The notes below the pieces were generated by a model. It saw only the letters and a list, made by a program, of their open reading frames with translations, made no database searches and was not told the DNA's origin. Both the position numbers and the translations under genes were made by a program. Shown here in pieces: positions 6,021-30,284 of a stretch of DNA of 30,284 bases. Source of the stretch: an uncultured Gammaproteobacteria bacterium (GTDB lineage Bacteria; Patescibacteriota; Microgenomatia; Levybacterales; UBA12049); assembly GCA_964366705.1 (NCBI GenBank), contig CAYIUZ010000001.1, positions 1 to 30,284 on the forward strand, given 5' to 3'. The stretch's first letter is position 1, and each line of letters begins with the position of its first letter.

Positions 6021-6037
6021 ATAGAAAAAGGTATTCT
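6009..6037 (+). promoter_or_regulatory. Sigma70 promoter for tRNA-Val, overlapping the divergent lepB promoter
   Basis: TTGCTT (6009-6014), 17-bp spacer, TATTCT (6032-6037), 10 nt upstream of the tRNA. Confidence 0.6.
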
Positions 6038-6047
6038 AGGGGTAATT

Positions 6048-6121: not shown

Positions 6122-6126
6122 CAACT

Positions 6127-13923: not shown

Positions 13924-13952
13924 TTGTAGAATTAGAGATCCTTATATATAAT
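13924..13952 (+). promoter_or_regulatory. Sigma70 promoter
   Basis: TTGTAG (13924-13929), 17-bp spacer, TATAAT (13947-13952), 10 nt before ATG 13963. Confidence 0.65.
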
Positions 13953-13962
13953 GCTTTGGATA

Positions 13963-15033
13963 ATGGACAAATCAATTGAGAGAATAATTAAAAATAAAAC
14001 AATTTTAATCACGGGTGGAACTGGGTCATTTGGAAATAGTGTTGTAGAAAAACTCCTGAAATTAAACGTAAAAAAAATAATAATTTTTAGTAGAGACGAA
14101 AAGAAACAGTTTGACATGAGAAATAAATTCGATAGTGAAAAACTAAAATTTATTATTGGAGATGTTAGAGATAGAGAAACTATAGACTCAGCTATAAAAG
14201 GTGTAGATTTTATTTTTCATGCTGCTGCATTAAAACAGGTTCCAACTTGTGAATTTTTTCCAATGGAGGCCGTAAAAACTAATATAAATGGCACACATAA
14301 TTTAATTACAGCAGCGATTAAAAATAACGTTAAAAGAGTTGTAGTCTTGAGTACAGATAAAGCAGTTTATCCGATAAATGCAATCGGAATTTCAAAAGCG
14401 ATGATGGAAAAAATTATGATTGCAGAATCAAAAAACTTGATTGATCCTAAATCAAAAACAATTTTATGTGGAGTTAGATATGGAAATGTTTTATACACGA
14501 GAGGTTCAGTTTTGCCTTATTTTGTTTCTCTTATCAATCAGAACAAAAAAATTTCTGTAACAGATTATCAGATGACAAGATTTCTCCTTCCGCTTCCAGA
14601 CGCCGTTTCGCTGGTTTTATACGCATTAATTAATGGAGAGCAAGGATATATGTATGTTAAAAAATCTCCTGCATGTAAATTAAGAACTTTAGCAGATGCA
14701 CTGTGTCAAATATTTGAATATAAGAAAGGTATATTTGAAACAGGTATTAGAGCAGGTGAAAAGATGCACGAAACCTTGGTAACTCGTGAAGAATTAATTA
14801 GAGCAAAAGAATTAAAAGATTATTATAAAATTCCACCTGAAAGCCAAGGGTTGGATTACAACAAATATCTCTACAGGGGAAAAGCAGTAGACGTTGAGAA
14901 GATGCAGTCGTATACTTCAAAAAATACAACTATTTTAGATGTTGATCAGGTAGCGAAGATGTTATTAAAAATTCCTGAAATCAGAGAAGAGCTATCTTTA
15001 GTTAAGCAAAAGCAGACTTTAAAACATACTTAA
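13963..15033 (+). CDS. fnlA: UDP-GlcNAc 4,6-dehydratase/5-epimerase, FnlA/CapE/WbjB family
   Basis: TGGTGSFG, FSRDEKKQ, HAAALKQVPTCEFFPMEAVKTN, STDKAVYPINAIGISKAMMEK, RYGNV, IRAGEKMHETL. Confidence 0.88.
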   Translation: MDKSIERIIKNKTILITGGTGSFGNSVVEKLLKLNVKKIIIFSRDEKKQFDMRNKFDSEKLKFIIGDVRDRETIDSAIKGVDFIFHAAALKQVPTCEFFPMEAVKTNINGTHNLITAAIKNNVKRVVVLSTDKAVYPINAIGISKAMMEKIMIAESKNLIDPKSKTILCGVRYGNVLYTRGSVLPYFVSLINQNKKISVTDYQMTRFLLPLPDAVSLVLYALINGEQGYMYVKKSPACKLRTLADALCQIFEYKKGIFETGIRAGEKMHETLVTREELIRAKELKDYYKIPPESQGLDYNKYLYRGKAVDVEKMQSYTSKNTTILDVDQVAKMLLKIPEIREELSLVKQKQTLKHT

Positions 15034-15733
15034 AATAATCATAGAAGATTTTAGGTGTATATTTGAAATGAGATTTAGAGTTTTTCCTTACGTGAATTGT
15101 ATTGGGGATTTCTGAAAATTTAGCTTTTTTCTTTTTTAAATAATATAACTCCTCAAGGATTATTGAAAAATTTTTTTCTTTGAATTCGATATTTTCTAAA
15201 AGTTTTAATCGAACCATTTTAAATCCATTTGTACAGTCTTTTATTTCAATATTAAACAATTTAGAGGCTAAAAAATTACCAGCGATAGATATTATCTGTC
15301 TAAAATAGGGAACATTCTCTACTCCACCGCCTTTTATGTAGCGGGATGCTTTCACGCAGTCAACATTTGGTCGCATTGCTTCTATGAATTCATGGATGTG
15401 GATTGGTGGGTTTGTGAGATCTGAATCCATCGTAAGGTAAAATTCAAAGTATCTTTTTATCGCTTCTTTTATACCCGTTTGAAGTGCGCCCCCAAATCCT
15501 AAATTTTTTTCGTGTGTAAGAACAACTAACTCCTTTTTATATTTTCTGGATTTTATTTTTAAAATATTCGATGTTTTATCCCGACTCCCATCGTCAACAA
15601 CGATTAGAAGAACCTCGTTTTTTATTTTTTTTATTTCCTTAATTACTTCTTCAATGCATTTGGAAGCAACTTTTTCCTCATTTAGCATGGGGATTATTAT
15701 TGCTAATGAATTTTTTTTATACTTTAATGCCAT
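15002..15733 (-). CDS. DPM1-like polyprenol-phosphate glycosyltransferase (GT2)
   Basis: IIIPMLNE, VDDGSRDKT, NLGFGGAL, MDSDL, ASRY, DCTNGFK. Confidence 0.85.
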   Translation of the reverse strand: MALKYKKNSLAIIIPMLNEEKVASKCIEEVIKEIKKIKNEVLLIVVDDGSRDKTSNILKIKSRKYKKELVVLTHEKNLGFGGALQTGIKEAIKRYFEFYLTMDSDLTNPPIHIHEFIEAMRPNVDCVKASRYIKGGGVENVPYFRQIISIAGNFLASKLFNIEIKDCTNGFKMVRLKLLENIEFKEKNFSIILEELYYLKKKKAKFSEIPNTIHVRKNSKSHFKYTPKIFYDYFKYVLKSAFA

Positions 15734-16910
15734 CTTCTATGAAAGACCTTTCAATTGGCAGGTGATTGTTTTTTGGGAGGTGTCCTCGAATATTATCATT
15801 TCTAAGTCTTTGAATAATATCCTTGGCGATTCTTATTGACGCTTTTCCGTCTCCTAAATTGTGTTTCCAGGGGCTTTTGCTGATCATCTCGAGTTTTTTA
15901 TAGATAATTTTAGGAAGATACTTATTCGGTTCATCAGGATCAAATTTTACACTTGCTTTTACATCATAAACCTGTGGTCGTTCTGTGGATTTTCGCATAT
16001 TTATACAAGGAATTCCTAGGACGCATGCTTCTTCGTTTAGCGTTCCTGAATCTGTTAAAACACCTTTTGAATGGGTTAAGAGAATGAGAATTTCACTGTA
16101 GCCGACTGGATCTGTGATTATTAGATTTTTAGGAAGTTTTATTTTCTTTTCTTTGATAATTTTCTGAGTTCTATAACTTGCTACAAAATAGACATCATAT
16201 GGCGCATAAGAAACCAAATTAAGTATTGAATTAAACGATTTTTCAATTTGTACGTTTTCTCTTCTGTGACAGGTCATTAAAAGGTATTCTCTGTCTTTTA
16301 TTCCACGATTATTAAAGAATTTAGTAGTAGCCATTTTTTCAAGTTTTTCTTTTTGATTAAAATAAAATTCGTTAAGAATATCAACGATTGGATTTTTTGT
16401 AACAACAATGTTTTTAGGATTTAACCCCTCTGCGATTCCTCTTTTCTTGTATTCCTCCTCGTATGTGTAAATGACATCTGATAAATGATCAGCGAGTGTT
16501 CTATATTTTTCTTCGGGCATTCTCCAGTCGTATGAATGCCAGCAGCCCTCTATATGGATTATTGGGATGTTAAGCTGCATGGCCGCAATTACGCCGGCTG
16601 TTGTATTTGTATCTCCCAGGAATATTACAGCGTCAGGTTTCATTTTTTCCAAAACCGGGTAAAGTTCGGAAATTAATTTTGAAACTATCTCGGCGTCTGT
16701 TTCGCCTCTTGCATCAAGCTCTACATCTGCCTTAGGCACATTAAACTCTTCAAAAAAAATCCCTTTTAGATTATGTGAATAGTTTTGGCCAGACCAAATT
16801 AATTTAACATCTATATCCTTAGCTTTTCTTAACTCTCGCATGATTAAAACCGCTCTTATTAAGTCAGGTCTAATTCCTAAAACAAATGCAATTTTTTTCT
16901 TTTTAACCAT
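15717..16910 (-). CDS. Non-hydrolysing UDP-HexNAc 2-epimerase, FnlC/CapG/QnlB-like
   Basis: GIRPDLIR (Arg where WecB has Lys, as in CapG/WbjD), WSGQNY, LGDTNT, HIEG, RMPEE, CHRREN, TDSGTLNEEA, STERP. Confidence 0.85.
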   Translation of the reverse strand: MVKKKKIAFVLGIRPDLIRAVLIMRELRKAKDIDVKLIWSGQNYSHNLKGIFFEEFNVPKADVELDARGETDAEIVSKLISELYPVLEKMKPDAVIFLGDTNTTAGVIAAMQLNIPIIHIEGCWHSYDWRMPEEKYRTLADHLSDVIYTYEEEYKKRGIAEGLNPKNIVVTKNPIVDILNEFYFNQKEKLEKMATTKFFNNRGIKDREYLLMTCHRRENVQIEKSFNSILNLVSYAPYDVYFVASYRTQKIIKEKKIKLPKNLIITDPVGYSEILILLTHSKGVLTDSGTLNEEACVLGIPCINMRKSTERPQVYDVKASVKFDPDEPNKYLPKIIYKKLEMISKSPWKHNLGDGKASIRIAKDIIQRLRNDNIRGHLPKNNHLPIERSFIEDGIKV

Positions 16911-17750
16911 TTAATTTAAAATTTTATCAAGTTCTTCCTGTAGATTTCTTCCGAATTTATTTAACTCACTTTTAGAAATAATACAACTCGATAAGTATCT
17001 TGTAATTATAACTGAGGAGTTAGTTTTATTTACGCGAATTTTTAATTTGCTAGTTTTAACAATTTCCCTAATCAGATCAAATTTGTTAATCGGTCCGAGT
17101 GGAGCAAAATGTATGATTTTTGATTTTTTCATTTTTAAAGATTCTTGATCATAAATTAGTGATTCGATAAATTTTGCAAATTGGAGCGTAGTGCACCCTG
17201 ACCAGATTTGATTATCAAATCCATCTATTTCATTTTTGCTATTTAATACAAATTCGATTAATCCCTTTTTTTTCTGGGGACTTACCCCGATGAGAGAAGT
17301 TCTGATCACAACAGAATTCCCTTCCAAAGATTCTCCTAGGAGTTTTGTGATCCCATAAGTGTCGCTGGGAGAGGGGATTTTTAGTTCATCTACCTTGCCT
17401 GAGGTTTTAGAAAAAACTCCATCTGTTGAAATATGTATTAATTTAAAATTGTATGTTTTTGATAATCTAGAAAGTTTAACGGGGAACTGTGAATTAATTT
17501 TAATTGCTTCTGATTTATTTTTTTCATCTACGGAATTTAGACCAATACAATTTATTACATAGTCAACGTTTTTAATTTTTTTTATGATTTCCTTAAAATC
17601 TTTAGATAAATTATCCACTGAAAGCGCAAGTTCTTTGCTCTCTCTTAGGGTACCCAGGATGTTTGTATGATTTTCTTTTAGGTATTTATAGACCTCGTGG
17701 CCTGTCATTCCATTAATTCCTAAAATAAGTACTATTGGGTCTTTCATCAA
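16911..17750 (-). CDS. RmlD-like NDP-4-keto-6-deoxysugar reductase (QnlA/WbvR-like)
   Basis: GINGMTG, VINCIG, IHISTDGVF, YGITK (YxxxK), IRTSLIG, WSGCTTLQFAK. No cupin domain. Confidence 0.8.
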   Translation of the reverse strand: MMKDPIVLILGINGMTGHEVYKYLKENHTNILGTLRESKELALSVDNLSKDFKEIIKKIKNVDYVINCIGLNSVDEKNKSEAIKINSQFPVKLSRLSKTYNFKLIHISTDGVFSKTSGKVDELKIPSPSDTYGITKLLGESLEGNSVVIRTSLIGVSPQKKKGLIEFVLNSKNEIDGFDNQIWSGCTTLQFAKFIESLIYDQESLKMKKSKIIHFAPLGPINKFDLIREIVKTSKLKIRVNKTNSSVIITRYLSSCIISKSELNKFGRNLQEELDKILN

Positions 17751-19671: not shown

Positions 19672-19698
19672 CGTGTTATATAATTAGGAATAGTTTGG

Positions 19699-19727
19699 AG
19701 TATATTATCTGAAATATTGGAAGTCAA
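19699..19727 (-). promoter_or_regulatory. Sigma70 promoter for the 19671-15002 operon
   Basis: TTGACT (19727-19722), 17-bp spacer, TATACT (19704-19699). Confidence 0.65.
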
Positions 19728-19984
19728 TGAACGATTTAAAACCCGTAAAGATTCTTGTTAGATATCTGTTCTTTTATTTTATATTTACAATTTTACTTTT
19801 AGGGACTTTTAGGAATCTAAGAAAACTTTTTTCTCCACCAGAAATAGGAAATGAAAAAATTATTGGTTATACGCATTACTACGGATATCCTTTTTATTTT
19901 GATAATATTTTCTTTTTTCTTTTATTTATACCTATATTAATAATCATTTCAGTTAAATTAATTAGAAAAGTTAAAAATAAATGA
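19727..19984 (+). CDS. Small two-TM hypothetical protein (85 aa)
   Basis: Two hydrophobic segments flank IIGYTHYYGYPFYFD. ATGA-coupled to the next gene. Confidence 0.7.
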   Translation: MNDLKPVKILVRYLFFYFIFTILLLGTFRNLRKLFSPPEIGNEKIIGYTHYYGYPFYFDNIFFFLLFIPILIIISVKLIRKVKNK

Positions 19985-21942
19985 ATAAATTTAAACATCC
20001 AATATTTATTTTATTTTTATCCTCATTTATATTTATCCCAATTTTTTTTCATGTCTGTCGTGATTTACTCGCTCTTTCTTTTGACTATCAAGAATTTATT
20101 ACATGGGATTATTTATCGAGCATTAAGAGTATTCCTTACAGGGATTTCTATTATCCGTATGGTTTAATTGACTATCTTAAAGATCACTATATTGTTTTTT
20201 TTGTTCTAAGCCTATTTATAATTCCACTTGTATTGACAATCATATTTACATTTTTCAAGAAGCTCTGGATAAAAACCACATATTCTTATTTATTCTTTTT
20301 TTCATTTTTAATTTTTGTAATTTCAAGCGTAGATCTAAATTTTTTTCAAAGATACGGAATAATGTTAAGTGCAACCCTACTACTAGCAATGAATTTTCTT
20401 CAAAGCGGATTTAAAAATAAATTCTCTTTTATTTTTGGTATTTTATCCGGTTTAATATTTTCATTAATTTATGATCAAGGGATGTACTTGATCTTGTTAT
20501 TTTTCGTTTCAGTTTTAGTTTTTTCTTTAACTGAAGTAAATAAAAAAATAAATTACAAAACATATTTATATTTAGTTTCAAGACAAATAGCCGCATTTTT
20601 AATTGGATTATTTTTAGTGGTTATTCCGTTTGGGATAATGTTAAACCATTTTGGAATGTTAAGTGGATTTATTTCGAACATAACTACCATAAATGATATT
20701 GCAAGATATGCAAAAGCACCATTTTTTAATAGTTTTATGTCCATTGAAAATTTATACATAACAGTATCGATATTTTTATCAACTATATATTTAGTTTACA
20801 AATTATTTTACTTGAGAAATACTAAAGGATTGGTCTTTAGATCAATATTTATAGCTTGGTTTTCTATTTTAATTTTGGAACAAAAGAATATTTTAAGATC
20901 AATTGATTCTCAATTAGTTTTTTTCTCATTTTTTATTTTTCTCCTGCTTTTCTACGAAGTATTTAGTTATTTTAAAAAACAAAAGCTGCAGTTTAAAAAT
21001 TATGGGATTTTATTTTTAACATTTATTCTAATTTCCATAAGTTTTTTTAAGATTGATGTAGATCAACTAACCCAGGTTTATTCAGTGAACTTATCTGGTT
21101 TAGGGAAAAATATTGGGGAGTGCAGTGAGAGTAACAAATCAAATCTTATGGTTAAAAATCCGCAATACAATGAAGTTAAAAATAAACTAGAGTCATACCC
21201 AGATTTTAACGGCAGGGTATATTCATTTCCGGGTGATCCATTTTTTTATGTAGTTCTTAACCAGAGGCCTCCATATTATTCTGCTATATATCAGGCATCT
21301 CCTTTATATGCTCAAAATAAAATTATCGATTTCTTAAAAAATGAAAATATAAAATATGTAATTTACAATACTTCTAGCTTAAGTCTTCAGGACACAGTTC
21401 CTAATTATGTCAGAGTTGCTACTCTTCACAATTACATAATAAATAATTATATTCCTAAAGAAAGTGTAGGAAATTTCTTAATTCTTGAAAAAAAAGAAGG
21501 AGATTTTTTTACTAATAACGATGCTAGTTCTTTACGCGAGCATTTTCTTAATATTGATCTTGAAAATATACCTAAGTCAGAAGGGATTTACAGAGAAGAT
21601 TATTTTGCACAAAGTGATGAAAATATTGCATTTAATTCATTTGAGGAAGCAAATAAATACTTAGGACAAAATAGTATAAATTCAAAAAATAAAATCTTGT
21701 TTATTAAATTTAAAAACTCAGTTGAAGAAATAAAAATTGAATTGTCAATTGAGACTCGTAACGGATTTAAAACAAAAATATTATATAAGGGGTGTAGTCC
21801 CAAATATTATTGTGTGATTAATTTATCAAATGTTCCTCTTTTTTATAAGAATAGAGTAATTAGTGAAATCTTAATTAGTGATCCCAAAAACATAAAGGAA
21901 ATTAATATCGCAACCTATAATTCAAATTCTTATTTTTGGTAA
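19981..21942 (+). CDS. Large polytopic membrane protein, probable GT-C glycosyltransferase with a C-terminal extracytoplasmic domain
   Basis: About 12 TMs, DYQEF and PYRDFYYPYG in the first loop, soluble C-terminal ~280 aa. Confidence 0.6.
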   Translation: MNKFKHPIFILFLSSFIFIPIFFHVCRDLLALSFDYQEFITWDYLSSIKSIPYRDFYYPYGLIDYLKDHYIVFFVLSLFIIPLVLTIIFTFFKKLWIKTTYSYLFFFSFLIFVISSVDLNFFQRYGIMLSATLLLAMNFLQSGFKNKFSFIFGILSGLIFSLIYDQGMYLILLFFVSVLVFSLTEVNKKINYKTYLYLVSRQIAAFLIGLFLVVIPFGIMLNHFGMLSGFISNITTINDIARYAKAPFFNSFMSIENLYITVSIFLSTIYLVYKLFYLRNTKGLVFRSIFIAWFSILILEQKNILRSIDSQLVFFSFFIFLLLFYEVFSYFKKQKLQFKNYGILFLTFILISISFFKIDVDQLTQVYSVNLSGLGKNIGECSESNKSNLMVKNPQYNEVKNKLESYPDFNGRVYSFPGDPFFYVVLNQRPPYYSAIYQASPLYAQNKIIDFLKNENIKYVIYNTSSLSLQDTVPNYVRVATLHNYIINNYIPKESVGNFLILEKKEGDFFTNNDASSLREHFLNIDLENIPKSEGIYREDYFAQSDENIAFNSFEEANKYLGQNSINSKNKILFIKFKNSVEEIKIELSIETRNGFKTKILYKGCSPKYYCVINLSNVPLFYKNRVISEILISDPKNIKEINIATYNSNSYFW

Positions 21943-21950
21943 ATAAGTTA

Positions 21951-21979
21951 TTGTATCTTTAAAATTTGATATCTATAAT
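21951..21979 (+). promoter_or_regulatory. Sigma70 promoter, leaderless geometry
   Basis: TTGTAT (21951-21956), 17-bp spacer, TATAAT (21974-21979), 7 nt before ATG 21987. Confidence 0.65.
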
Positions 21980-21986
21980 ACGTGAA

Positions 21987-23132
21987 ATGTACGTAGTAGA
22001 TGTTAAAAGAACCCCGGTAGGTAAATTTTTGGGATCTCTCTCGAATTTAACAGCTCCAGAGCTAACAAAGCCATTATTTTCTTATTTCATAGATAAATAT
22101 CCATTTTTACATAAAGAGACAGATGAGGTTATCATGGGTCACGTTCTTTCGGCTGGAGAGGGGATGAATCCTGCAAGGCAGGCCTCCGTCGGGGGAGGAA
22201 TAAGCGTAAGCGTTCCATCTTATGGAATTAGTCATGTTTGTGCTTCTGGAATGAATGCAGTTATTCAGGCAAGTCGCGGTATTAGAGCGGGAGATGTTGA
22301 TCTCGTTTTGGCTGGAGGTATGGAAAATATGTCTAAAGCCCCTTTTCTTCTAGAGAACGTGCGTAAAGGATTTCGCTATGGAGAACGCGCTTTAATCGAT
22401 TCACTCCAGCATGACGGACTCTGCTGTGGTCTTCGAAATGAAATTATGGGAGTTGTGGCTGAATATATGACAAAAAAATATAATATAAGTAGAAAAAAAC
22501 AAGACGAATTTTCGCTTAACAGTCACAGGAAAGCGATCAAGGCTCAGAAGAATAAAGTTTTCTCAACGGAAATAATTAAAACTCTGGAAATTAGTTCAGA
22601 TGAAGGACCAAGAAGTGATACGACGTTACAAAAATTGTCTTCTCTTAAACCAGCATTTAAGAATGATGGTTCTGTAACAGTTGGAAATTCCAGTACGATT
22701 AACGATGGGGCGGCTCTTTCTCTTTTAGCTTCTGAAAACGCATTAAAAAAATATGGATTAAAGCCAATTGCGCGAGTTGTTGATTATAGCTTTGTTGGTC
22801 TTGATCCAAAGGACATGGGCATGGGTCCAAAATATGCCATTGAAAAACTTTTGAAAAAAAATTCACTAAGTCTTAAAGACATAGATTTATTCGAGATTAA
22901 TGAAGCGTTTGCAGTTCAGGTGCTATCGGTAGTTAGTTCGCTTAAAATTGATGAAACAAAACTAAATATTTATGGAGGTGCAATATCCATTGGTCATCCG
23001 TTAGGGATGAGTGGAGTCAGGATAATCGGTACTCTTATTAATGGACTTAAGAGAACAAATGGAGAATTGGGGATTGCAAGTCTATGTGTAGGAGGAGGAC
23101 AGGGTGGCGCAGTATTAATTGAAAATATATGA
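21987..23132 (+). CDS. Acetyl-CoA C-acetyltransferase (thiolase II, PhaA-like)
   Basis: KRTPVG, catalytic Cys (HVCASG), AGGMENMS, INDGAA, EINEAF, His (GHPLG) and second Cys (SLCVGGGQG) are all intact. Start at ATG 21987; TTG 21966 is the alternative. Confidence 0.93.
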   Translation: MYVVDVKRTPVGKFLGSLSNLTAPELTKPLFSYFIDKYPFLHKETDEVIMGHVLSAGEGMNPARQASVGGGISVSVPSYGISHVCASGMNAVIQASRGIRAGDVDLVLAGGMENMSKAPFLLENVRKGFRYGERALIDSLQHDGLCCGLRNEIMGVVAEYMTKKYNISRKKQDEFSLNSHRKAIKAQKNKVFSTEIIKTLEISSDEGPRSDTTLQKLSSLKPAFKNDGSVTVGNSSTINDGAALSLLASENALKKYGLKPIARVVDYSFVGLDPKDMGMGPKYAIEKLLKKNSLSLKDIDLFEINEAFAVQVLSVVSSLKIDETKLNIYGGAISIGHPLGMSGVRIIGTLINGLKRTNGELGIASLCVGGGQGGAVLIENI

Positions 23133-23857
23133 AACAAATAGCTTTTATTACGGGATCAAGTAGGGGAATAGGAAGATCAATTGCACTTCGCCTTGCAAAA
23201 GAAGGATTTGGGGTAGTTTTACACGGGTTAAGTTTGAGCCATGAGCTAATAGCTACCGAAAAAGAACTAAAAAAACTCAAGGCTCATGTCTTAACCATTT
23301 GCTTTGATGTTTCTAATCTTGCGGAAGTGGATTCTTCGTGTCAGAAAATTTTAGATAAAGTTAAAAAAATTGATGTACTTGTGAATAACTCTGGAATTTC
23401 AAGAGATAAGACTCTTATGAAGATGAGCAATGAAGATTGGGATATTGTTCTTAAAACTAATTTATATGGACCGTTTTATTTGACAAAAGCCCTGCTTCCA
23501 GGAATGAAAAAGCAAGGTTACGGGCGAATCATAAATATCTCCTCAGCTGCTGTGAGGGGAGCATTTGGCAAAGCAAATTATTCAGCTTCAAAAGCAGGAT
23601 TAATAGGAATGACAAAATCAGTGGCTTTAGAAGTGGCAAAAGATAAAATTACAGTAAGTGCAATTTGTCCGGGTTTTATAGATGCAGGTATGAGTTCTTT
23701 AATTCCGGAAAAATATCAAAAACAAATTCTTTCAAATGTAGCTATGGGTAGGCCAGGTGCATCCGAAGAGGTGGCTAGTTTGGTTGCATATTTAGCAAGC
23801 AAAGAAAGTTCATATATAACAGGCGCTGTAATAGATATTGACGGGGGCTGGTTATAG
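23129..23857 (+). CDS. Acetoacetyl-CoA reductase / 3-oxoacyl reductase (PhaB/FabG-like SDR)
   Basis: TGSSRGIG, NNSGISRD, WDIVLKTNL, GRIINISS, NYSASKAG (YxxxK), CPGFI. ATGA-coupled to the thiolase. Confidence 0.85.
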   Translation: MKQIAFITGSSRGIGRSIALRLAKEGFGVVLHGLSLSHELIATEKELKKLKAHVLTICFDVSNLAEVDSSCQKILDKVKKIDVLVNNSGISRDKTLMKMSNEDWDIVLKTNLYGPFYLTKALLPGMKKQGYGRIINISSAAVRGAFGKANYSASKAGLIGMTKSVALEVAKDKITVSAICPGFIDAGMSSLIPEKYQKQILSNVAMGRPGASEEVASLVAYLASKESSYITGAVIDIDGGWL

Positions 23858-24748
23858 TCTAAGCTTAATGGAATTAATGGTCTCCCGAGATGTTTTTAAG
23901 GGTCCTCCGTTTGCTAAAACTAAGGTATTCAATGTTTCCTCTAGGAAGCTTATTCTTTTTTCGAATTTAATACGTAGCGGGATAACTGGATGATTTTTAT
24001 CTGGAGTTTCTAAATTTACGAAATCAATCGCATGAAATAAATAAAGAGCATGCTTGGGTTTCGTATTAAAATATTTAATTATTAAATTGCGATATCTTTT
24101 GCCGAAAAAATAAGCAAAAGTTGTATGTATTGGAAGTCTTAAGACCGGAAGTGTTGAAATAGGCAGTTCGAGCAGGCCTTTCTTGTTGTGGGGGGATCTT
24201 AGAGCATAGGGATTTCTGCTGCTTATTAAATAATTCATTCGGCCAAAAGTTTTGTGACGATTTTCCCCACCCCGTATATAGGCATATAGTTTCATTAAAA
24301 GTTCTGAAAATCCCGGCAATACACTTGAATCATATTTGTAGTTAAGTTTCTGCAAAATACTTACTATTTCAGGATCTTGATAATATCCGGGTCCTCTAAA
24401 GCCAATCGGCTCCACTTTACAAACTTTAGCAATGATCTCATGGGCTTTTACGATCTGAGCTTGTTTTTCTTTGAAAGACATTTTGCCAAATAAGACTGGA
24501 TGACTCCAGGAGTGATTTGCTATTTCATGACCTTCGCTTACTGCTTTTTTGCAAAATTTTCTGCATTTTGGAAGCAAAAGATCTTGCCCAATTATCATAA
24601 AAGTCGCTTTTGAATTAGATTTTTTAAGTAACTTAAGGAGAATTGGTAGGCTATGGGTGTATATAAATTCAGGATCCTTTAAGATTTTTACACCAAATTC
24701 TTTTTCATAAATCCACAAATTATCAACGTCTACGTGAAGAAAGATCAT
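23852..24748 (-). CDS. Polysaccharide deacetylase, CE4/NodB-like
   Basis: HVDVD, ATFMIIG, HEIANHSWSH, GFRGPGY, YDSS, LYLFH. Confidence 0.85.
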   Translation of the reverse strand: MIFLHVDVDNLWIYEKEFGVKILKDPEFIYTHSLPILLKLLKKSNSKATFMIIGQDLLLPKCRKFCKKAVSEGHEIANHSWSHPVLFGKMSFKEKQAQIVKAHEIIAKVCKVEPIGFRGPGYYQDPEIVSILQKLNYKYDSSVLPGFSELLMKLYAYIRGGENRHKTFGRMNYLISSRNPYALRSPHNKKGLLELPISTLPVLRLPIHTTFAYFFGKRYRNLIIKYFNTKPKHALYLFHAIDFVNLETPDKNHPVIPLRIKFEKRISFLEETLNTLVLANGGPLKTSRETINSIKLRL

Positions 24749-25443
24749 AAATCCGGAACGTTTACTTTTTCTCTTTTACCGATAATTCTAGGAGGCAGAC
24801 CTGCCACGATGTCATATGGCGCTATTTTCTTTTTAACTACGGTATTTGCACCTACCACTGCCCCCTCGCTTATGTATGCGCCTGGAAGAAGTATGCTTCC
24901 AGTTCCTACGCAGCTATCTTTTTCTATGACTATTTTTTCAGAATAATATGCTTTATATTTTTCAGGAATCATAGGGCCGCTCATGCGTTTTCCGCCAAAA
25001 GGCCTTTCACTGTTTGAATATATTTTTGAACTCGCGCCAATTCCCACGTAGTCTTCAACAATGATTGGCTCTCTTGCAGCTAAAATTGCATAAGGAGCAA
25101 TATGGACTCGTTTCCCTATTTTTATTTCGCCCAAGGTTCCCTCTAACTTTACTCCAGTATCGATCCATGTATACTCGTCAATTGAAATGTTTTTTGTGCC
25201 GTTAATAAATACTCCTACATCAATTAATACATTTTTTCCTAATTTCTTTAGCATCACTTTATAGTAGTAGTAGCGAATCTTAAATCCAAAACCTCCTGGA
25301 ATATATCGAATTAACATTTCAAAGATTGCTAGGAAAGATTTTAGAATTAGGACGATGTATGAAGTTAAAGGTATTTTTTCGCCATTTATAAATTTAGCGA
25401 ATGCATCATATTCGAGCTGATAAGTAAGTTTATTTTTCGGCAT
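24745..25443 (-). CDS. Left-handed beta-helix (hexapeptide repeat) acyltransferase
   Basis: LGKNVLID, IKIGKRVHI, DYVGIGASS, VGTGSILLPG, GAVVGANTVV, VAGLPPR. Start placed at ATG 25443 (MPKNK), which overlaps the upstream stop; the track's 25536 start would overlap it by more than 100 nt. Confidence 0.82.
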   Translation of the reverse strand: MPKNKLTYQLEYDAFAKFINGEKIPLTSYIVLILKSFLAIFEMLIRYIPGGFGFKIRYYYYKVMLKKLGKNVLIDVGVFINGTKNISIDEYTWIDTGVKLEGTLGEIKIGKRVHIAPYAILAAREPIIVEDYVGIGASSKIYSNSERPFGGKRMSGPMIPEKYKAYYSEKIVIEKDSCVGTGSILLPGAYISEGAVVGANTVVKKKIAPYDIVAGLPPRIIGKREKVNVPDL

Positions 25444-26398
25444 ATACATAAGTCCATTCGGCAGTAAAAAATTTAGAATTTGCATATTTATTTTCTTTTT
25501 GGAGTTTTTTAAACAATTTTTTAGCTGCAGTTTCAATTATTTTGCTTCTGTCCTTTTCTTCCTGTTCTGAGGGATCTATTCCTCCAATTTCCGGTAAGAT
25601 TCCAGCCTGTAAGCGCTTGACGTTTAGAAAGTTCAGCCAATCGATGTAGCTCACTTTTATCGGTTTATGAGTGACTTTTATGTTCTTAAAACCAGCTAGT
25701 TTTAAAGAATTTAGATAATATTCAATTGGTCTCGGATCAGGGAATACCAGCTTTCGTTGTGGATACTGTTCTTTAATTCTTTTGCCTAAATTATTTTTAT
25801 ATTTTTTAAATTTATCATCAGTTTTAATTAATTCTAGTCCTAGATCATGAATTTGATTTATGGAATCATCGATTTTTAAGGCTCCGCCATTTGCTTTATT
25901 TGTAATGTTTCCACTTTGAAATACTAATGTTCCTGAGTTTTTCATTGAATCATAAAACCCTTTGAACGTCTCAGGAATGTTTGGGATAAGGTGAACTGTA
26001 TTTGCGCAAATTATGTGATTTACTGAATTTTCTCCGATAAGCTCGTTTAAAAACAAATATTTATTATTGACTTTATCAAGAATGTAAAACTCAACTTTTT
26101 TGTTTGAGTTAAGCAGCATATGTGCATGACCCAGCCAGGAGGAAGAGTTGTCTATTAGTAATAGTTTTGATAATTCTATTTTTTTTAATAAATATATGGC
26201 GGATGATCCTGTTCCTGCGCCATAATCAACCACAATATCGTTTTTTTTGATTTTGTTTTTTATTATCTTTATAAGCATAGAGATGTTATTTTTATGCCAG
26301 GAAGTGCTAGCAACTGCATTGTGGTATGCTGTAGCGCCTTTGGAGACTGGTCTATCTGGTGTCCATGGATTCGATATTAAGATTTTATTTTTTTTCAT
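25430..26398 (-). CDS. Class I SAM-dependent methyltransferase
   Basis: VVDYGAGTGSS, LIDNS, ICANTVHLI, GTLVFQSG. Start at ATG 26398; 26407 lies in the -10 box. Confidence 0.8.
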   Translation of the reverse strand: MKKNKILISNPWTPDRPVSKGATAYHNAVASTSWHKNNISMLIKIIKNKIKKNDIVVDYGAGTGSSAIYLLKKIELSKLLLIDNSSSWLGHAHMLLNSNKKVEFYILDKVNNKYLFLNELIGENSVNHIICANTVHLIPNIPETFKGFYDSMKNSGTLVFQSGNITNKANGGALKIDDSINQIHDLGLELIKTDDKFKKYKNNLGKRIKEQYPQRKLVFPDPRPIEYYLNSLKLAGFKNIKVTHKPIKVSYIDWLNFLNVKRLQAGILPEIGGIDPSEQEEKDRSKIIETAAKKLFKKLQKENKYANSKFFTAEWTYVYAEK

Positions 26399-26405
26399 TT
26401 CTAGC

Positions 26406-26434
26406 ATTGTAACAAACTAATCTACAAATTATAA
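26406..26434 (-). promoter_or_regulatory. Extended -10 promoter, leaderless geometry
   Basis: Minus strand TTATAA, 17-bp spacer ending in TGT, then TACAAT (26411-26406), 7 nt before ATG 26398. Confidence 0.55.
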
Positions 26435-28405: not shown

Positions 28406-30284
28406 ATGAAAACTACCCTAATTACTACGGTTCTAAACGAAGAAAAAAATATTGATAAGTTTTTTAAGTCACTGTTTCTGCAGACAATTTATCCGGATGA
28501 AGTTGTGATTGTTGATGGCGGAAGTAAGGATAAAACAGTTGAGAAAATCCAGAGTGTAATTAAAAAAAATCATAAAAAAATAGAAATAAAATTGCTTAAA
28601 AAAACAGGTAATAGATCAGTAGGCCGGAATTTTGCTATTAAAAATTCTTCAAATGAAATAATTCTTGCAACAGATTTTGGTTGCAGTCTTGATAAAAATT
28701 GGGTTAAGAATATTTCTGCACCATTTGAAGACTTGAAAGTTGACGTTGTCTCCGGATTTTATAAACCAGTTACAGGAAATATATTTAAAAAATGTTTGTC
28801 CGCATACACATGTGTAATGCCTGACAAAATAAATGAAAATGAATTCTTACCTTCTTCACGCTCAATAGCTTTTAGAAAAAAAATATGGGGGAAAAATAAA
28901 TATCCCGAGTGGCTTGATACTTGTGAGGATCTGGTATTTGCTAAAAATTTAAGAGAAAAAGGTGCAAGATTTAAGTTTGTTAAGAGTGCTGTTGTAAATT
29001 GGGAGCAGAAAAACAATCTCAGGGAAGCTTTTTTTCAATTTCTAAGTTATGCAAAAGGAGATGGGAGAGCGTTTTTCATAAGACCTCAAGTTCCTTTAAT
29101 TTATTTAAGATATTTCTTAGGTTTATATTTTCTTTTTCTCTGTATTCTTGAAAGATCTTGGCAATTATTGATCATCTTCCCTATTTTAATTTGCTTATAT
29201 TTTTTGTGGGCAATAAAAAAGAATTATAAATATGTAAATAATAAAAAAGCATTTTTAATTCTTCCTCAGCTTCAAATAACTTCTGATATCGCTGTTTTGA
29301 TTGGGACTACATATGGAATGGTTAGGAGAATAAGCCTTGAGAAAATTATCAATATCTTTAAAGATAATAAATTCTTAATTTTTATATTAGCTATCTATGT
29401 TTTTCTGTTGTTTTTAACGCTTGATTATGGAATTCCGAATAAATTCCATCCGTTTCCTTATCACATGGATGAGTGGCACCAACTGCAAGCAGTTAGATCT
29501 ACATTCGCATATGGAACACCAAATGTAGAGGGGTCTGCAAATGGTACTATGCTTCATTTTATTTTATCCGGTTTTTACCTAATCCCTTTTACTCTGTTAG
29601 GAATAATTAATCCCTTTGAGTTAAGAATTGATGATCTTATTGCAAGACAAAATATTTTTATTTTGTTAAGACTTAATACGATTATTTGGGGAATTTTATC
29701 AATAATTTTAGTTTATAAAATAGCAGATTTGTTAAAAATTCCAAAGCGATTAGCTGTAACACTTTTTACTTTTAATCCACTCTGGCTAATGTTAAGCGGG
29801 TACTTTAAATATGATGTTGCGTTAATGTTTTTTATACTTTTATCTTTATTATTTCTATATAGGTTTTCTAAAAACCCAACGGGTATTAACTTTGTGATAG
29901 CAGGAGTTCCAATCGGAATGGCTCTTTCAGTAAAGATTAGTGTTTTATCTTTAATCCCAATTTATCTTCTCTCATATTTAATGTTTCATAAAGAAAAAAT
30001 TAAAAACATAAAGCATTTAATATTTGGATTTTTTGTCATTTTATTTACTGCAATTATATTTGGATTTCCAGATACTTTATTTGGGACAGGGAATATTTAT
30101 AAGTATCTTTATGAAAATTTAGTTATATTTCCAAGCGCTACAGAGAATATTAGAGAGGGAAGTAATCTACTTCTTTATGTTTTTATAAAGCATTATTCAA
30201 TAATTTTTGGTCCTGGAGTTTTATTTCTTTTTTTCGTGTCTTTATTTTTATTGATCTATTCAAGCTTTAAGTCTGGAATAGAAA
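28406..30284 (+). CDS. Fusion: GT2 glycosyltransferase + GT-C (ArnT/PMT-like) membrane domain; 3' end outside the window
   Basis: Missing from the ORF track. Hand translation from ATG 28406 is open to the window end (626 codons): MKTTLITTVLNEE, IVDGGSKDKT, GRNFAI, ATDFG, CEDLVF, then TMs, PYHMDEWHQ (29465-29476 = MDEW), YFKYD, SVK and more TMs. Confidence 0.85.
   Translation, partial: MKTTLITTVLNEEKNIDKFFKSLFLQTIYPDEVVIVDGGSKDKTVEKIQSVIKKNHKKIEIKLLKKTGNRSVGRNFAIKNSSNEIILATDFGCSLDKNWVKNISAPFEDLKVDVVSGFYKPVTGNIFKKCLSAYTCVMPDKINENEFLPSSRSIAFRKKIWGKNKYPEWLDTCEDLVFAKNLREKGARFKFVKSAVVNWEQKNNLREAFFQFLSYAKGDGRAFFIRPQVPLIYLRYFLGLYFLFLCILERSWQLLIIFPILICLYFLWAIKKNYKYVNNKKAFLILPQLQITSDIAVLIGTTYGMVRRISLEKIINIFKDNKFLIFILAIYVFLLFLTLDYGIPNKFHPFPYHMDEWHQLQAVRSTFAYGTPNVEGSANGTMLHFILSGFYLIPFTLLGIINPFELRIDDLIARQNIFILLRLNTIIWGILSIILVYKIADLLKIPKRLAVTLFTFNPLWLMLSGYFKYDVALMFFILLSLLFLYRFSKNPTGINFVIAGVPIGMALSVKISVLSLIPIYLLSYLMFHKEKIKNIKHLIFGFFVILFTAIIFGFPDTLFGTGNIYKYLYENLVIFPSATENIREGSNLLLYVFIKHYSIIFGPGVLFLFFVSLFLLIYSSFKSGIE

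What the first reader, a model, noticed from the sequence alone, without database searches (positions are those of the whole stretch)
21987..26398. Candidate new system: a PhaA/PhaB-like 3-hydroxybutyryl-CoA supply facing a deacetylase + acyltransferase operon inside a glycan locus
Seen: an intact thiolase and a coupled PhaB/FabG-like reductase sit in the middle of a glycosylation locus. They converge (6-nt overlap at 23852-23857) on methyltransferase > LbetaH acyltransferase > CE4 deacetylase. No PhaC, ACP, FabB/F or HMG-CoA synthase is in the window. Established: thiolase + acetoacetyl-CoA reductase make 3-hydroxybutyryl-CoA; 3-hydroxybutyryl amides occur on amino sugars of bacterial polysaccharides; CPR bacteria generally lack fatty-acid synthesis. 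Inference: the module strips N-acetyl from a surface or NDP-linked amino sugar (CE4), re-acylates it with 3-hydroxybutyrate (LbetaH) and may methylate it. That would be PHA precursor chemistry repurposed for glycan editing.
Basis: partly seen in the sequence, partly recalled or inferred. Interest (0 to 1): 0.8.

Follow-up and report, generated by a model that had tools for sequence, protein, structure and literature searches.

The report
Hydroxybutyryl swap module for surface sugar
A tiny-genome (CPR) bacterium keeps, inside its surface-sugar gene region, a conserved five-gene block that most likely makes 3-hydroxybutyryl-CoA and uses it to replace the acetyl group on an amino sugar; this matters because these cells lack the usual metabolism that would use such enzymes.

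Summary
An intact type II thiolase (21987-23132) is start/stop-coupled to a FabG-like reductase (23129-23857). The pair converges, with a 6-nt overlap, on a methyltransferase > LbH acyltransferase > CE4 deacetylase operon.

- The five-gene block recurs in relatives, in a Microgenomates genome and in metagenome contigs, although its flanks are rearranged.
- Among 61 related genomes, orthologs of the thiolase and of the LbH occur in exactly the same four.
- The nearest solved relative of the LbH is AntD, an amino-sugar N-acyltransferase that was crystallised with 3-hydroxybutyryl-CoA.
- LbH-CE4 is an invariant pair across loci of 37-69% GC. Next to it sit different 3-hydroxybutyryl-CoA-forming sets: thiolase+SDR, thiolase+Hbd, or an acyl-CoA synthetase-like gene+Hbd.
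- PhaC, ACP, KAS and crotonase were not found. The mevalonate operon has its own archaeal-type thiolase.

Best explanation (confidence about 0.6): N-acetyl is exchanged for N-3-hydroxybutanoyl on a 6-deoxy-L-hexosamine, possibly while it is lipid-linked.

Untested: N- versus O-acylation, the acceptor sugar, and the methyltransferase target. By sequence the SDR is closer to FabG than to PhaB.

The scan's earlier AI notes record the same block in another genome and analogous cassettes elsewhere. I found no paper describing it. I class it as a new variant of a known kind.

The parts
21987..23132 (+). Type II (biosynthetic) thiolase, 381 aa. Predicted reaction: 2 acetyl-CoA -> acetoacetyl-CoA.
   Evidence: TIGR01930 scores 444.5 bits against a cut-off of 240.55. 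The best PDB matches are acetyl-CoA acetyltransferases at E 1e-98. The VCASG, NEAF, GHPLG and CVGGG catalytic motifs are all present. It belongs to a distinct clade of about 43 metagenome proteins of 55% identity or more.
23129..23857 (+). FabG-like classical SDR, 242 aa, start-coupled to the thiolase by an ATGA overlap. Predicted NADPH-dependent acetoacetyl-CoA reductase that gives 3-hydroxybutyryl-CoA.
   Evidence: adh_short_C2 scores 202 bits. TIGR01830 (FabG) scores 272.6 against a cut-off of 297.75, and TIGR01829 (PhaB) scores 241.9 against 302.1. The top PDB match is a (3R)-hydroxyacyl-CoA dehydrogenase at 9e-62. The TGSSRGIG and YSASK motifs are present. No ACP was found in four genomes.
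23852..24748 (-). Cytoplasmic CE4 (NodB-fold) deacetylase, 298 aa. Predicted to remove the N-acetyl group of an amino sugar.
   Evidence: PF01522 scores 63 bits. There is no signal peptide; the protein begins at the catalytic HVDVD motif. D7, D9, H74, H79, H83, R118, P120, Y122, H239 and D242 are invariant in 8 orthologs of 34-61% identity. It lies immediately downstream of the LbH in all 12 loci in which I saw the LbH.
24745..25536 (-). AntD-like left-handed beta-helix acyltransferase. The true start is probably Met at about 25446, giving about 233 aa. Predicted to transfer 3-hydroxybutanoyl from CoA to the freed amine.
   Evidence: The best solved relative is B. cereus AntD (3vbi to 3vbp) at E 1.7e-17 over residues 93-257; the next hits are at about 1e-9. 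The identity of these entries as AntD is confirmed. The GPMIPE.YK loop is invariant. Some homologs carry JGI's AntD functional name.
25430..26407 (-). Class I SAM methyltransferase, 325 aa, first gene of the minus-strand operon. Target unknown: it could be a sugar O-methyl, an N-methyl, or the acyl hydroxyl.
   Evidence: Only generic Methyltransf_12/31/25 hits. No informative PDB or Atlas relative. It is syntenic with LbH-CE4 in G006, G021, L046 and L054.
19981..21942 (+). 653-aa polytopic membrane protein, GT-C-like, directly upstream of the thiolase on the same strand. It is a candidate transferase for the modified sugar. The 85-aa membrane protein at 19727-19984 precedes it.
   Evidence: No Pfam hit. 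The Atlas structural match gives TM 0.58-0.69 to PMT_2 clusters. Homologs lie next to the block in G021, G049, L046, L047 and L054.
13951..17750 (.). Probable supply of the acceptor sugar: FnlA-like UDP-GlcNAc 4,6-dehydratase/5-epimerase (13951-15033, +), small GT2 of the polyprenyl-phosphate sugar synthase type (15002-15733, -), non-hydrolysing 2-epimerase (15717-16910, -), and RmlD-like 4-reductase (16911-17750, -).
   Evidence: FnlA TIGR04130 scores 423 bits, below its cut-off; wecB TIGR00236 scores 214.4 against 210.15; the GT2's best hits are PgfS, PpgS and ArnC, all below cut-off. The same genes flank LbH-CE4 in G021, G049, L048, L052 and the P0160 contig.

Best explanation
The five genes form one functional module that exchanges the N-acyl group of a surface-glycan amino sugar.

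Proposed steps:
1. The thiolase condenses two acetyl-CoA to acetoacetyl-CoA.
2. The coupled FabG-like reductase reduces it, probably with NADPH and probably to the (R)-isomer, giving 3-hydroxybutyryl-CoA.
3. The cytoplasmic CE4 enzyme removes the N-acetyl group from a 2-acetamido-2,6-dideoxy-L-hexose made by the neighbouring FnlA-like, RmlD-like and 2-epimerase genes.
4. The AntD-like LbH acyltransferase, translationally coupled to CE4, puts 3-hydroxybutanoyl on the freed amine.
5. The methyltransferase adds a methyl group at an unknown position.

The sugar may be edited while it is carried on polyprenyl phosphate: loaded by the small GT2, then transferred outside the membrane by the GT-C-like 653-aa protein or a PMT_2 protein.

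Shown: gene identities, intact catalytic motifs, conserved linkage, genome-level co-occurrence, and no other detected consumer of these metabolites.
Inferred: every substrate, the order of steps, N- rather than O-acylation, and the stereochemistry.
For: (a) Conserved block.
- THL-SDR facing CE4-LbH-MT is kept in G006 and G021 while the tm85/653-aa genes moved to the other side.
- It is also kept in Microgenomates RBG_16_45_19 and in metagenome contigs.

(b) Phyletic profile.
- LbH orthologs (E 1e-100 or better) and thiolase orthologs occur in the same 4 of 61 relatives.
- Neither ortholog appears in 400 other genomes of the phylum; the only thiolase hit there is a 41%-identical one in G107.
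- In G049 the thiolase sits on another contig, yet an SDR copy still faces CE4-LbH.

(c) Different enzymes beside the same pair.
- LbH-CE4 is preceded by thiolase + Hbd (3HCDH family) in L049.
- It is preceded by an acetyl/acetoacetyl-CoA-synthetase-like gene + Hbd in L052.
- A clade member of the thiolase is coupled to FdtA, a NeuD/PglB-type N-acyltransferase and DegT in L053.

(d) Acyltransferase kinship.
- The closest solved relative of the LbH is AntD, which N-acylates dTDP-4-amino-4,6-dideoxyglucose with a 3-hydroxyacyl-CoA and was crystallised with 3-hydroxybutyryl-CoA.

(e) Pairing logic.
- CE4 follows the LbH in 12 of 12 loci. A deacetylase fused in this way to an acetyl-adding enzyme would be futile.
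- The CE4 catalytic residues are invariant, and there is no signal peptide.

(f) No other detected use.
- PhaC, ACP, KAS, crotonase and Hbd were not found.
- Mevalonate entry has its own archaeal thiolase. PMC6107057 reports that CPR use the archaeal AACT in place of thiolase II.

(g) Precedent.
- N-(3-hydroxybutanoyl) amino sugars, including GlcN(R3Hb), are known in O-antigens (PMC4869667, PMC3726653).
Against: - The LbH scores about as well against the WbbJ/WcaF O-acetyltransferase models (55 bits) as against AntD. Sequence alone therefore cannot separate N-acyl from O-acetyl transfer.
- The SDR is FabG-like: it reaches neither the PhaB nor the FabG equivalog cut-off, and its nearest plasmid homologs are annotated FabG.
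- G049 carries a thiolase-SDR pair in a non-glycan neighbourhood.
- Two LbH-CE4 loci (L048, L050) show no supply genes within 7 kb.
- DegT aminotransferases exist elsewhere in the genome, so CE4 need not be the only source of an amine.
- The genome is 75% complete, so absences are provisional.
- Many block-bearing contigs come from related CPR lineages and are not independent.
Confidence: 0.6

Rival explanations
1. The LbH is an ordinary O-acetyltransferase of the WbbJ/WcaF/maltose-acetyltransferase kind, and CE4 simply leaves a free amine, as with GalN on mycobacterial arabinogalactan. The 3-hydroxybutyryl-CoA is either attached as an O-ester by another enzyme or is unrelated to these two genes.
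For: - The best NCBIfam hits of the LbH are O-acetyltransferases: WbbJ at 6e-15, then WcaF and Vat.
- Foldseek lists maltose and galactoside O-acetyltransferases beside AntD.
- A thiolase-clade member lies near a membrane Acyl_transf_3 O-acyltransferase with no LbH in view.
- PMC5748678 (rhizobial exopolysaccharide review) came up in my 3-hydroxybutanoyl search, but I did not read it. That rhizobial EPS carries O-linked 3-hydroxybutanoyl groups rests on my own recollection.
Against: - The strict LbH-CE4 coupling (12 of 12 loci, usually a 4-nt overlap) argues for successive action on one substrate.
- AntD is the clearly best solved relative, at 1.7e-17 against about 1e-9 for the next.
- Supply genes of three different kinds sit directly beside LbH-CE4.
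Confidence: 0.17
2. The pair makes a different short acyl donor for the same acyltransferase. Candidates are acetoacetyl, a longer iteratively built 3,5-dihydroxyhexanoyl, or a methylated derivative such as 3-methoxybutanoyl made with the methyltransferase.
For: - A 3,5-dihydroxyhexanoyl N-acyl group is reported on the Vibrio cholerae O100 O-antigen (abstract of PMC12024518, listed).
- G049 has two SDR copies.
- A methyltransferase is co-operonic with the LbH, and another often precedes the thiolase.
- AntD's natural donor is the branched 3-hydroxy-3-methylbutyryl-CoA (PMC8141488).
Against: - One thiolase plus one ketoreductase gives 3-hydroxybutyryl-CoA as the simplest product.
- The alternative supply sets (thiolase+Hbd, synthetase-like+Hbd) point to the same C4 hydroxyacyl-CoA.
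Confidence: 0.12
3. The thiolase and SDR serve central metabolism and lie in the glycan locus only by shared descent or co-transfer. Possible roles are extra acetoacetyl-CoA for mevalonate or isoprenoid carrier lipid, a redox sink releasing 3-hydroxybutyrate, or oligo/poly-hydroxybutyrate.
For: - G049 keeps a thiolase-SDR pair between cytochrome b5-like, DUF2975, DNA methylase and MazG genes, not in a glycan locus.
- The genome has a mevalonate pathway that consumes acetoacetyl-CoA.
- The block region has a higher GC (0.36-0.385) than its flanks (0.24-0.30), which is compatible with transfer as a unit.
Against: - The mevalonate operon carries its own archaeal thiolase and DUF35.
- PhaC, crotonase and Hbd were not found.
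- The thiolase was found in only 3 of 60 relatives, and the only hit in 400 phylum genomes was a 41%-identical one in G107. That is not the pattern of a central function.
- All four additional thiolase-clade contexts I examined are glycan loci.
- The genome-level profile matches that of the LbH exactly.
Confidence: 0.08

Closest known systems
Anthrose pathway of Bacillus anthracis/cereus: antABCD, with AntD the LbH N-acyltransferase and AntA supplying the hydroxyacyl-CoA
   Same: - An in-locus enzyme makes a short 3-hydroxyacyl-CoA.
- An AntD-type LbH puts it on an amino sugar of a surface glycan, and the final sugar is also methylated.
- AntD is the nearest solved relative of the window's LbH (E 1.7e-17, about 33% identity over 165 residues).
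   Different: - In anthrose the amine comes from an aminotransferase at C4 of a dTDP sugar. Here no aminotransferase is in the locus and a CE4 deacetylase is fused in series.
- The donor supply there is an enoyl-CoA hydratase (my recollection of the literature). Here it is thiolase + ketoreductase.
- The window's LbH has a conserved three-helix N-terminal extension of about 65 aa that AntD lacks.
LpxC/LpxD steps of lipid A synthesis
   Same: The logic is the same: de-N-acetylate a UDP-linked amino sugar, then N-acylate it with an (R)-3-hydroxyacyl group using an LbH acyltransferase.
   Different: - LpxC is a different fold from CE4.
- LpxD uses long-chain acyl-ACP; no ACP was found here.
- The LbH matches the LpxD model only weakly, at 24 bits.
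- The product here would be a glycan decoration, not a membrane anchor.
Nod factor tailoring: NodB (CE4), NodA, NodS methyltransferase, NodL (LbH), NodC (GT2)
   Same: A cytoplasmic CE4 deacetylase frees an amine that is then re-acylated and methylated. The enzyme classes CE4, LbH, SAM methyltransferase and GT2 co-occur.
   Different: - There is no NodA homolog.
- The NodB model scores only 35.7 bits against a cut-off of 240.
- The methyltransferase shows no specific NodS similarity.
- The acceptor is a 6-deoxy-hexosamine pathway product, not chito-oligosaccharide.
PhaA/PhaB of polyhydroxybutyrate synthesis
   Same: A thiolase and an NADPH ketoreductase are arranged as a coupled pair that converts acetyl-CoA to 3-hydroxybutyryl-CoA.
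   Different: - No PhaC was found in four genomes.
- The thiolase scores 337 against the PhaA cut-off of 740, and the SDR scores 241.9 against the PhaB cut-off of 302.1.
- The nearest SDR homologs are FabG-like.
FdhC/QdhC 3-hydroxybutanoyltransferases of O-antigen clusters (E. coli O103, Acinetobacter, Hafnia)
   Same: The predicted product class is the same: an N-(3-hydroxybutanoyl) amino sugar in a surface polysaccharide (PMC4869667, PMC3726653).
   Different: - The cited papers identify those genes only as 3-hydroxybutanoyltransferases acting on aminotransferase-derived 3-amino sugars. That they are GNAT-fold is my recollection, not something I checked.
- No thiolase is mentioned in either paper (term count 0).
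- Here the transferase is an LbH, the amine comes from a deacetylase, and the donor pathway is encoded in cis.
Arn (ArnC/ArnD/ArnT) and mycobacterial PpgS/Rv3779 lipid-linked monosaccharide routes
   Same: - A small GT2 loads a modified amino sugar on polyprenyl phosphate.
- The N-acyl group is removed on the carrier: ArnD is a CE4 enzyme, and the mycobacterial deacetylase is still unidentified (PMC9671496).
- A GT-C enzyme transfers the sugar outside the membrane.
- The window has the GT2 type, the CE4 and several GT-C proteins.
   Different: - All similarities to ArnC, ArnD and PpgS are far below cut-off.
- Those systems stop at the free amine and do not re-acylate.
- Editing on the lipid carrier is my inference only.

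Membership tests
Type II biosynthetic thiolase (acetyl-CoA C-acetyltransferase, TIGR01930) | Thiolase_N and Thiolase_C domains, with a family score above the curated cut-off | tested here: met
   PF00108 scores 253 bits and PF02803 scores 164 bits. TIGR01930 scores 444.5 against a cut-off of 240.55.
Type II biosynthetic thiolase (acetyl-CoA C-acetyltransferase, TIGR01930) | Catalytic Cys (acyl-enzyme), Asn-Glu-Ala-Phe, His and second Cys motifs | tested here: met
   VCASG, INEAFA, GHPLGMSG and LCVGGGQG are read directly in the translation.
PhaA equivalog (NF042967) | Score above the equivalog cut-off | tested here: not met
   337.2 bits against a cut-off of 740.
PhaB acetoacetyl-CoA reductase (TIGR01829) | Score above the curated cut-off | tested here: not met
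   241.9 bits against a cut-off of 302.1. It is outscored by FabG TIGR01830, which at 272.6 is also below its cut-off of 297.75.
FabG 3-oxoacyl-ACP reductase | Sequence membership | tested here: inconclusive
   It passes only the subfamily model PRK12826.1-2 (236.1 against 222) and fails the equivalogs. The nearest plasmid homologs are annotated FabG at 37-45% identity. I did not build a formal PhaB/FabG tree.
FabG 3-oxoacyl-ACP reductase | An acyl carrier protein and condensing enzymes in the same genome | tested here: not met
   PP-binding was not found in G000, G006, G021 or G049. Ketoacyl-synt_C was not found in G000. The genomes are 75-97% complete.
PHA synthesis system (PhaCAB) | A PHA synthase | tested here: not met
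   PF07167 was not found in four genomes, and TIGR01836 was not found in G000.
AntD-type LbH sugar N-acyltransferase | Hexapeptide beta-helix with the AntD-like loop insertion, and AntD as the closest characterised relative | tested here: met
   AntD entries 3vbi to 3vbp match at E 1.7e-17 over residues 93-257. The GP(M/T)IP..YK loop is aligned and is invariant in 52 homologs.
AntD-type LbH sugar N-acyltransferase | Use of a 3-hydroxyacyl-CoA donor and an amine acceptor | not testable with these tools
   Only context bears on this: the coupled CE4 and the neighbouring 3-hydroxybutyryl-CoA-forming genes. The AF2 model was too poor for pocket analysis (pLDDT 69; Foldseek TM 0.35 or lower).
AntD-type LbH sugar N-acyltransferase | Companion 4-aminotransferase and dTDP-glucose pathway, as in the anthrose operon | tested here: not met
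   No DegT or RmlA/B gene lies in the window. DegT genes occur only on other contigs.
CE4 (NodB-homology) de-N-acetylase | Polysacc_deac_1 domain with the Asp/His-His metal site and catalytic Asp/His | tested here: met
   PF01522 scores 63 bits against a cut-off of 23.1. D7, D9, H74, H79, H83, R118, P120, Y122, H239 and D242 are invariant across 8 orthologs.
ArnD / NodB / PgdA equivalogs | Score above the equivalog cut-off | tested here: not met
   ArnD scores 19.9 against 382, NodB 35.7 against 240, and PgdA 45-46 against 400-800.
Polyprenyl-phosphate-linked (Arn/PpgS-like) three-component glycosylation | A polyprenyl-P sugar synthase GT2, a flippase and a GT-C transferase in the locus | tested here: inconclusive
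   - The GT2's best hits are PgfS, PpgS and ArnC, all below cut-off.
- PMT_2 proteins are present, and the 653-aa protein is GT-C-like by Atlas structure.
- No flippase was identified in the window. An EamA pair sits beside LbH-CE4 only in L051.

The most novel reading that the evidence does not exclude
LbH-CE4 is the core of a widespread, undescribed N-acyl editing pathway. It would work on a polyprenyl-phosphate-linked 6-deoxy-hexosamine: load by a small GT2, deacetylate, re-acylate with 3-hydroxybutanoyl, methylate, flip, and transfer by a GT-C enzyme. In metabolically minimal CPR bacteria the cassette has captured a private thiolase/ketoreductase supply line, because these cells have no other source of hydroxyacyl-CoA. 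Type II thiolase would then exist in CPR solely for glycan decoration.
Probability: 0.3. Interest if true: 0.75.

Novelty: new variant of a known kind. Interest (0 to 1): 0.6.

Why it matters
CPR/Patescibacteria have very small genomes and generally no fatty-acid or storage-polymer metabolism. Here two classic central-metabolism enzymes appear to be retained only to decorate a cell-surface sugar. That implies the decoration is under strong selection, plausibly for attachment to hosts or for evading phages.

Three further points:
- It gives a concrete, testable function to the otherwise puzzling type II thiolases seen sporadically in these lineages.
- It defines a conserved deacetylase-acyltransferase pair, found from 37% to 69% GC genomes, that current annotation labels only as 'acetyltransferase' and 'polysaccharide deacetylase'.
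- It suggests a candidate type for the still-unidentified deacetylases of lipid-linked amino-sugar routes, such as mycobacterial GalN.

Tried and rejected
- AF2 model of the LbH from a 52-sequence alignment. It was poor (pLDDT 69, pTM 0.54), and Foldseek gave TM 0.35 or lower with high rmsd. I used it only for the PDB titles, not for pocket analysis.
- The search for related loci in genome contigs with the LbH. It returned only six distant Firmicutes/Cloacimonas relatives. One of them (L024, Lachnospiraceae) has an LbH coupled to a FabG-like SDR in a nonulosonic-acid cluster. I treat this as weak support, because SDRs of that kind occur in such clusters for other reasons.
- Methyltransferase function. 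The PDB and Atlas searches were uninformative.
- AntD paper. I could not retrieve it, so I could not map its pocket residues. AntD D94 aligns with the conserved Glu of the NSE motif, and S84 with a Gly, but I draw no conclusion from that.
- PhaB-versus-FabG tree. HMM scores and BLAST neighbours stand in for it.
- Idea that the thiolase belongs to the operon of the 653-aa protein alone. Rejected, because in G021 that gene lies on the other side of the block.
- Literature searches. None found a paper describing a thiolase in a glycan cluster or this cassette.

Full report
**What is there**

The window is the whole of contig C1 of an 869-kb, 155-contig genome estimated at 75% complete. That size and its best protein matches point to a Patescibacteria/CPR bacterium. 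From about 6.1 kb to its end the window is a glycan locus. It holds:
- an FnlA-like UDP-GlcNAc 4,6-dehydratase/5-epimerase, an RmlD-like reductase and a non-hydrolysing 2-epimerase, which is the gene set for a 2-acetamido-2,6-dideoxy-L-hexose;
- two NDP-sugar C-methyltransferases;
- several GT2 and GT4 transferases;
- three PMT_2-type GT-C proteins.

Inside this locus the five genes of the finding are as described:
- The thiolase (likely ATG at 21987) has both thiolase domains and all catalytic motifs, and passes TIGR01930.
- The thiolase stop overlaps the start of a 242-aa classical SDR as ATGA.
- The SDR stop overlaps by 6 nt the stop of a convergent CE4 gene.
- CE4 is the last gene of a minus-strand operon: methyltransferase > hexapeptide acyltransferase > CE4, with short overlaps.

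One correction: the two units converge, so they are not one operon.

**Is the thiolase-SDR pair needed elsewhere?**

In the window's genome I found no PhaC (class I/II N-domain or class III), no PP-binding/ACP, no ketoacyl synthase C-domain and no crotonase. I also found no Hbd-type dehydrogenase, AMP-forming synthetase-like or carboxyltransferase homolog when I searched with proteins from related loci. PhaC_N and ACP were also not found in three block-bearing relatives that are 85-97% complete.

A mevalonate entry operon does exist on contig C43. It reads HMG-CoA reductase, HMG-CoA synthase, an archaeal-type thiolase (Thiolase_C_1) and a DUF35 OB-fold protein, so it is self-contained. This matches the published statement that in CPR thiolase II is replaced by the archaeal acetoacetyl-CoA thiolase for mevalonate synthesis (PMC6107057). 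The window's type II thiolase is therefore an extra enzyme with no other visible use. All absences are provisional because the genomes are incomplete.

**Conservation and co-occurrence**

Among 60 relatives, thiolase orthologs occur only in three:
- G006, same genus, 83-91% identity;
- G021, another genus, 66%;
- G049, another family, 59%.

A 400-genome sample of the phylum gave only one 41% hit. LbH orthologs (E 1e-100 or better) occur in exactly the same four genomes, counting the window's own. The other relatives hold only weak paralogs at E 9e-24 or weaker, and the same 400-genome phylum sample holds none.

Synteny by genome:
- G021: FnlA, GT2, 2-epimerase, RmlD, C-methyltransferase | thiolase, SDR facing CE4, LbH, MT | 85-aa and 653-aa membrane proteins. 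The five-gene block is intact while the membrane-protein genes have moved to the other side.
- G006: the same block, split across two contig ends.
- G049: the thiolase-SDR pair sits among unrelated genes on contig C8. On contig C3 a second SDR copy (57% identity) still converges on CE4-LbH beside the same sugar genes.

The genes therefore co-vary at genome level even when unlinked, and the SDR is the one most tightly tied to CE4-LbH.

**Wider distribution**

The LbH has at least 244 metagenomic homologs, the best 120 at 55% identity or more. The thiolase belongs to a sharply bounded clade of about 43 proteins, mostly 381 aa and 55% identical or more. Below that, identity drops to 50% or less against ordinary Firmicutes thiolases.

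Contexts reached from the LbH:

| Locus | LbH identity | Arrangement |
|---|---|---|
| L046 (Microgenomates RBG_16_45_19) | 63% | MT-LbH-CE4 facing SDR-thiolase-MT-662 aa |
| L047 | 61% | LbH-CE4 facing SDR-thiolase-MT-660 aa |
| L049 | 60% | thiolase + Hbd (3HCDH) + carboxyltransferase, GT2, LbH-CE4 |
| L052 | 66% | C-methyltransferase, RmlD, 2-epimerase, acetyl/acetoacetyl-CoA-synthetase-like, Hbd, LbH, CE4, all co-directional |
| L051 | 55% | EamA pair, LbH, CE4, and an SDR 2.3 kb away |
| L048, L050 | 58%, 59% | LbH-CE4 with GT2 and sugar genes, no supply genes in view |

Contexts reached from the thiolase clade:
- Two more full blocks.
- L053: the thiolase is start-coupled to FdtA, a methyltransferase, a NeuD/PglB/VioB-family N-acetyltransferase and a DegT aminotransferase, which is the classic 3-amino-sugar N-acylation layout.
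- One glycan locus with DegT and a membrane Acyl_transf_3 but no LbH in view.

The loci span 33-69% GC, so LbH-CE4 is not confined to CPR.

Two patterns stand out:
1. CE4 immediately follows the LbH in all 12 loci in which I saw the LbH.
2. Enzymes that form 3-hydroxybutyryl-CoA recur beside the pair in three different versions: thiolase + FabG-like SDR, thiolase + Hbd, and synthetase-like + Hbd.

Recruiting non-homologous enzymes for the same step is the strongest argument that the common metabolite, 3-hydroxybutyryl-CoA, is what the pair needs. The loci without supply genes have 47% and 62% GC; I take them to come from larger genomes that could draw on housekeeping acyl-CoA metabolism. I did not test that.

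**The enzymes**

- LbH. Its best solved relative by far is AntD of Bacillus cereus (E 1.7e-17 over residues 93-257; next hits about 1e-9). Entries 3vbi to 3vbp are AntD (PMC6031040; PDB titles). AntD N-acylates dTDP-4-amino-4,6-dideoxyglucose in anthrose synthesis with 3-hydroxy-3-methylbutyryl-CoA (PMC8141488). Entry 3vbj is its complex with 3-hydroxybutyryl-CoA. The loop that interrupts the beta-helix (GPMIPE.YK) is aligned with AntD's and is invariant in 52 homologs. The family also has a conserved N-terminal extension of about 65 aa, three predicted helices, that AntD lacks.
- LbH, caution. NCBIfam's best hits are O-acetyltransferases of the WbbJ/WcaF type at similar scores. Sequence alone does not prove N-acyl transfer.
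- CE4. It has no signal peptide, starts at the catalytic HVDVD motif, and keeps D7, D9, H74, H79, H83, R118, P120, Y122, H239 and D242 invariant across orthologs of 34-61% identity. It is a cytoplasmic, probably active metallo-deacetylase. It reaches no equivalog cut-off for NodB, PgdA or ArnD.
- SDR. It has the NADP-type TGSSRGIG motif and the catalytic Ser/Tyr-x3-Lys. It scores higher as FabG (272.6) than as PhaB (241.9), passes neither cut-off, and has FabG-annotated nearest plasmid homologs. Its top PDB match is a (3R)-hydroxyacyl-CoA dehydrogenase. With no ACP detected, a CoA-linked substrate from the coupled thiolase is the simplest reading.
- Methyltransferase. It gave no informative relatives.

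**Mechanism proposed**

1. Thiolase and SDR make 3-hydroxybutyryl-CoA.
2. CE4 removes the N-acetyl group of the 6-deoxy-L-HexNAc made next door.
3. The LbH installs 3-hydroxybutanoyl on the freed amine.
4. The methyltransferase adds a methyl group somewhere.

A deacetylase locked to an acetyl-adding enzyme would be futile, which favours a non-acetyl donor. The steps may occur on a polyprenyl-phosphate carrier, for three reasons:
- The small GT2 that travels with LbH-CE4 (40-42% identity in L048, L050, L052) is most similar to PgfS, PpgS and ArnC, although below cut-off.
- The 653-aa protein that travels with the block is GT-C-like by predicted structure.
- Known parallels exist: ArnC/ArnD/ArnT, and the mycobacterial GalN route, whose deacetylase is still unidentified (PMC9671496).

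The lipid-carrier part is inference only.

**Comparison with what is known, and novelty**

N-(3-hydroxybutanoyl) amino sugars and their FdhC/QdhC transferases are known (PMC4869667, PMC3726653). So are AntD, the LpxC/LpxD and NodB/NodA logic of N-acyl exchange, and PhaA/PhaB chemistry. I could not find any description of the combination seen here in the searchable literature. That combination is a CE4 deacetylase in series with an AntD-like LbH, fed by a private thiolase/ketoreductase, in organisms that otherwise lack acyl-CoA metabolism. I class it as a new variant of a known kind.

Earlier AI notes of this scan record the same block in another genome (e1-2066783, e1-2066780) and analogous supply-plus-acyltransferase cassettes in other lineages. 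They agree with this reading but are not independent evidence.

**Limits**

- All chemistry is inferred.
- The genomes are incomplete.
- The AF2 model of the LbH was too poor for pocket analysis.
- No formal PhaB/FabG tree was built.

Noticed in passing
G000 contig C43 (locus L005) 32-3804, minus strand: A self-contained archaeal-type mevalonate entry operon: HMG-CoA reductase, HMG-CoA synthase, archaeal-type thiolase (Thiolase_C_1) and a DUF35 OB-fold protein. An IS200-like transposase gene lies nearby at 5357-6028.
   Followed up: partly
window 19981-21942 (+), with 19727-19984: A 653-aa polytopic membrane protein has no Pfam hit but a GT-C-like predicted fold (TM 0.58-0.69 to PMT_2 clusters). 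With a small 85-aa membrane protein, it travels with the five-gene block in several genomes, on either side of it.
   Followed up: partly
L053 7001-13927: A member of the same thiolase clade (55% identity) is start-coupled to FdtA, a methyltransferase, a NeuD/PglB/VioB-type N-acetyltransferase, two unknown proteins, a GT2 and a DegT aminotransferase. This is a second, different amino-sugar N-acylation operon that has recruited this thiolase, without an obvious reductase.
   Followed up: partly
L052 4153-8580 and L049 2354-8634: LbH-CE4 is preceded by an acetyl/acetoacetyl-CoA-synthetase-like gene + Hbd in L052, and by thiolase + Hbd + carboxyltransferase in L049. These are alternative, non-homologous ways to supply a hydroxyacyl-CoA. 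L049 has 69% GC, so the pair is not restricted to CPR.
   Followed up: partly
window 22001-25000 versus 19001-22000: GC content is 0.36-0.385 across the thiolase, SDR and CE4 genes but 0.24-0.29 in the genes just upstream. This fits either strong amino-acid constraint or acquisition of the block by transfer.
   Followed up: no
window 24745-25536 and 25430-26407: The longest LbH frame (TTG at 25536) overlaps the methyltransferase by 107 nt. Orthologs align only from about residue 22-39, so the real start is probably the Met near 25446 or 25440. The family has a conserved helical N-terminal extension of about 65 aa, of unknown role, that AntD lacks.
   Followed up: partly
L024 (Lachnospiraceae MAG) 6036-7330: A shorter AntD-like LbH (191 aa) is start-coupled to a FabG-like SDR inside a nonulosonic-acid (PseB/DegT/NeuB/CMP-transferase) cluster. 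This may be another hydroxyacyl decoration, but the SDR's role there is ambiguous.
   Followed up: no
window 28406-30283 and 9354-10778: Two fusions are present: GT2 fused to a PMT_2-type GT-C region (it runs off the contig end), and GT2 fused to a class I methyltransferase. Both are conserved in G006 or G049 fragments.
   Followed up: no
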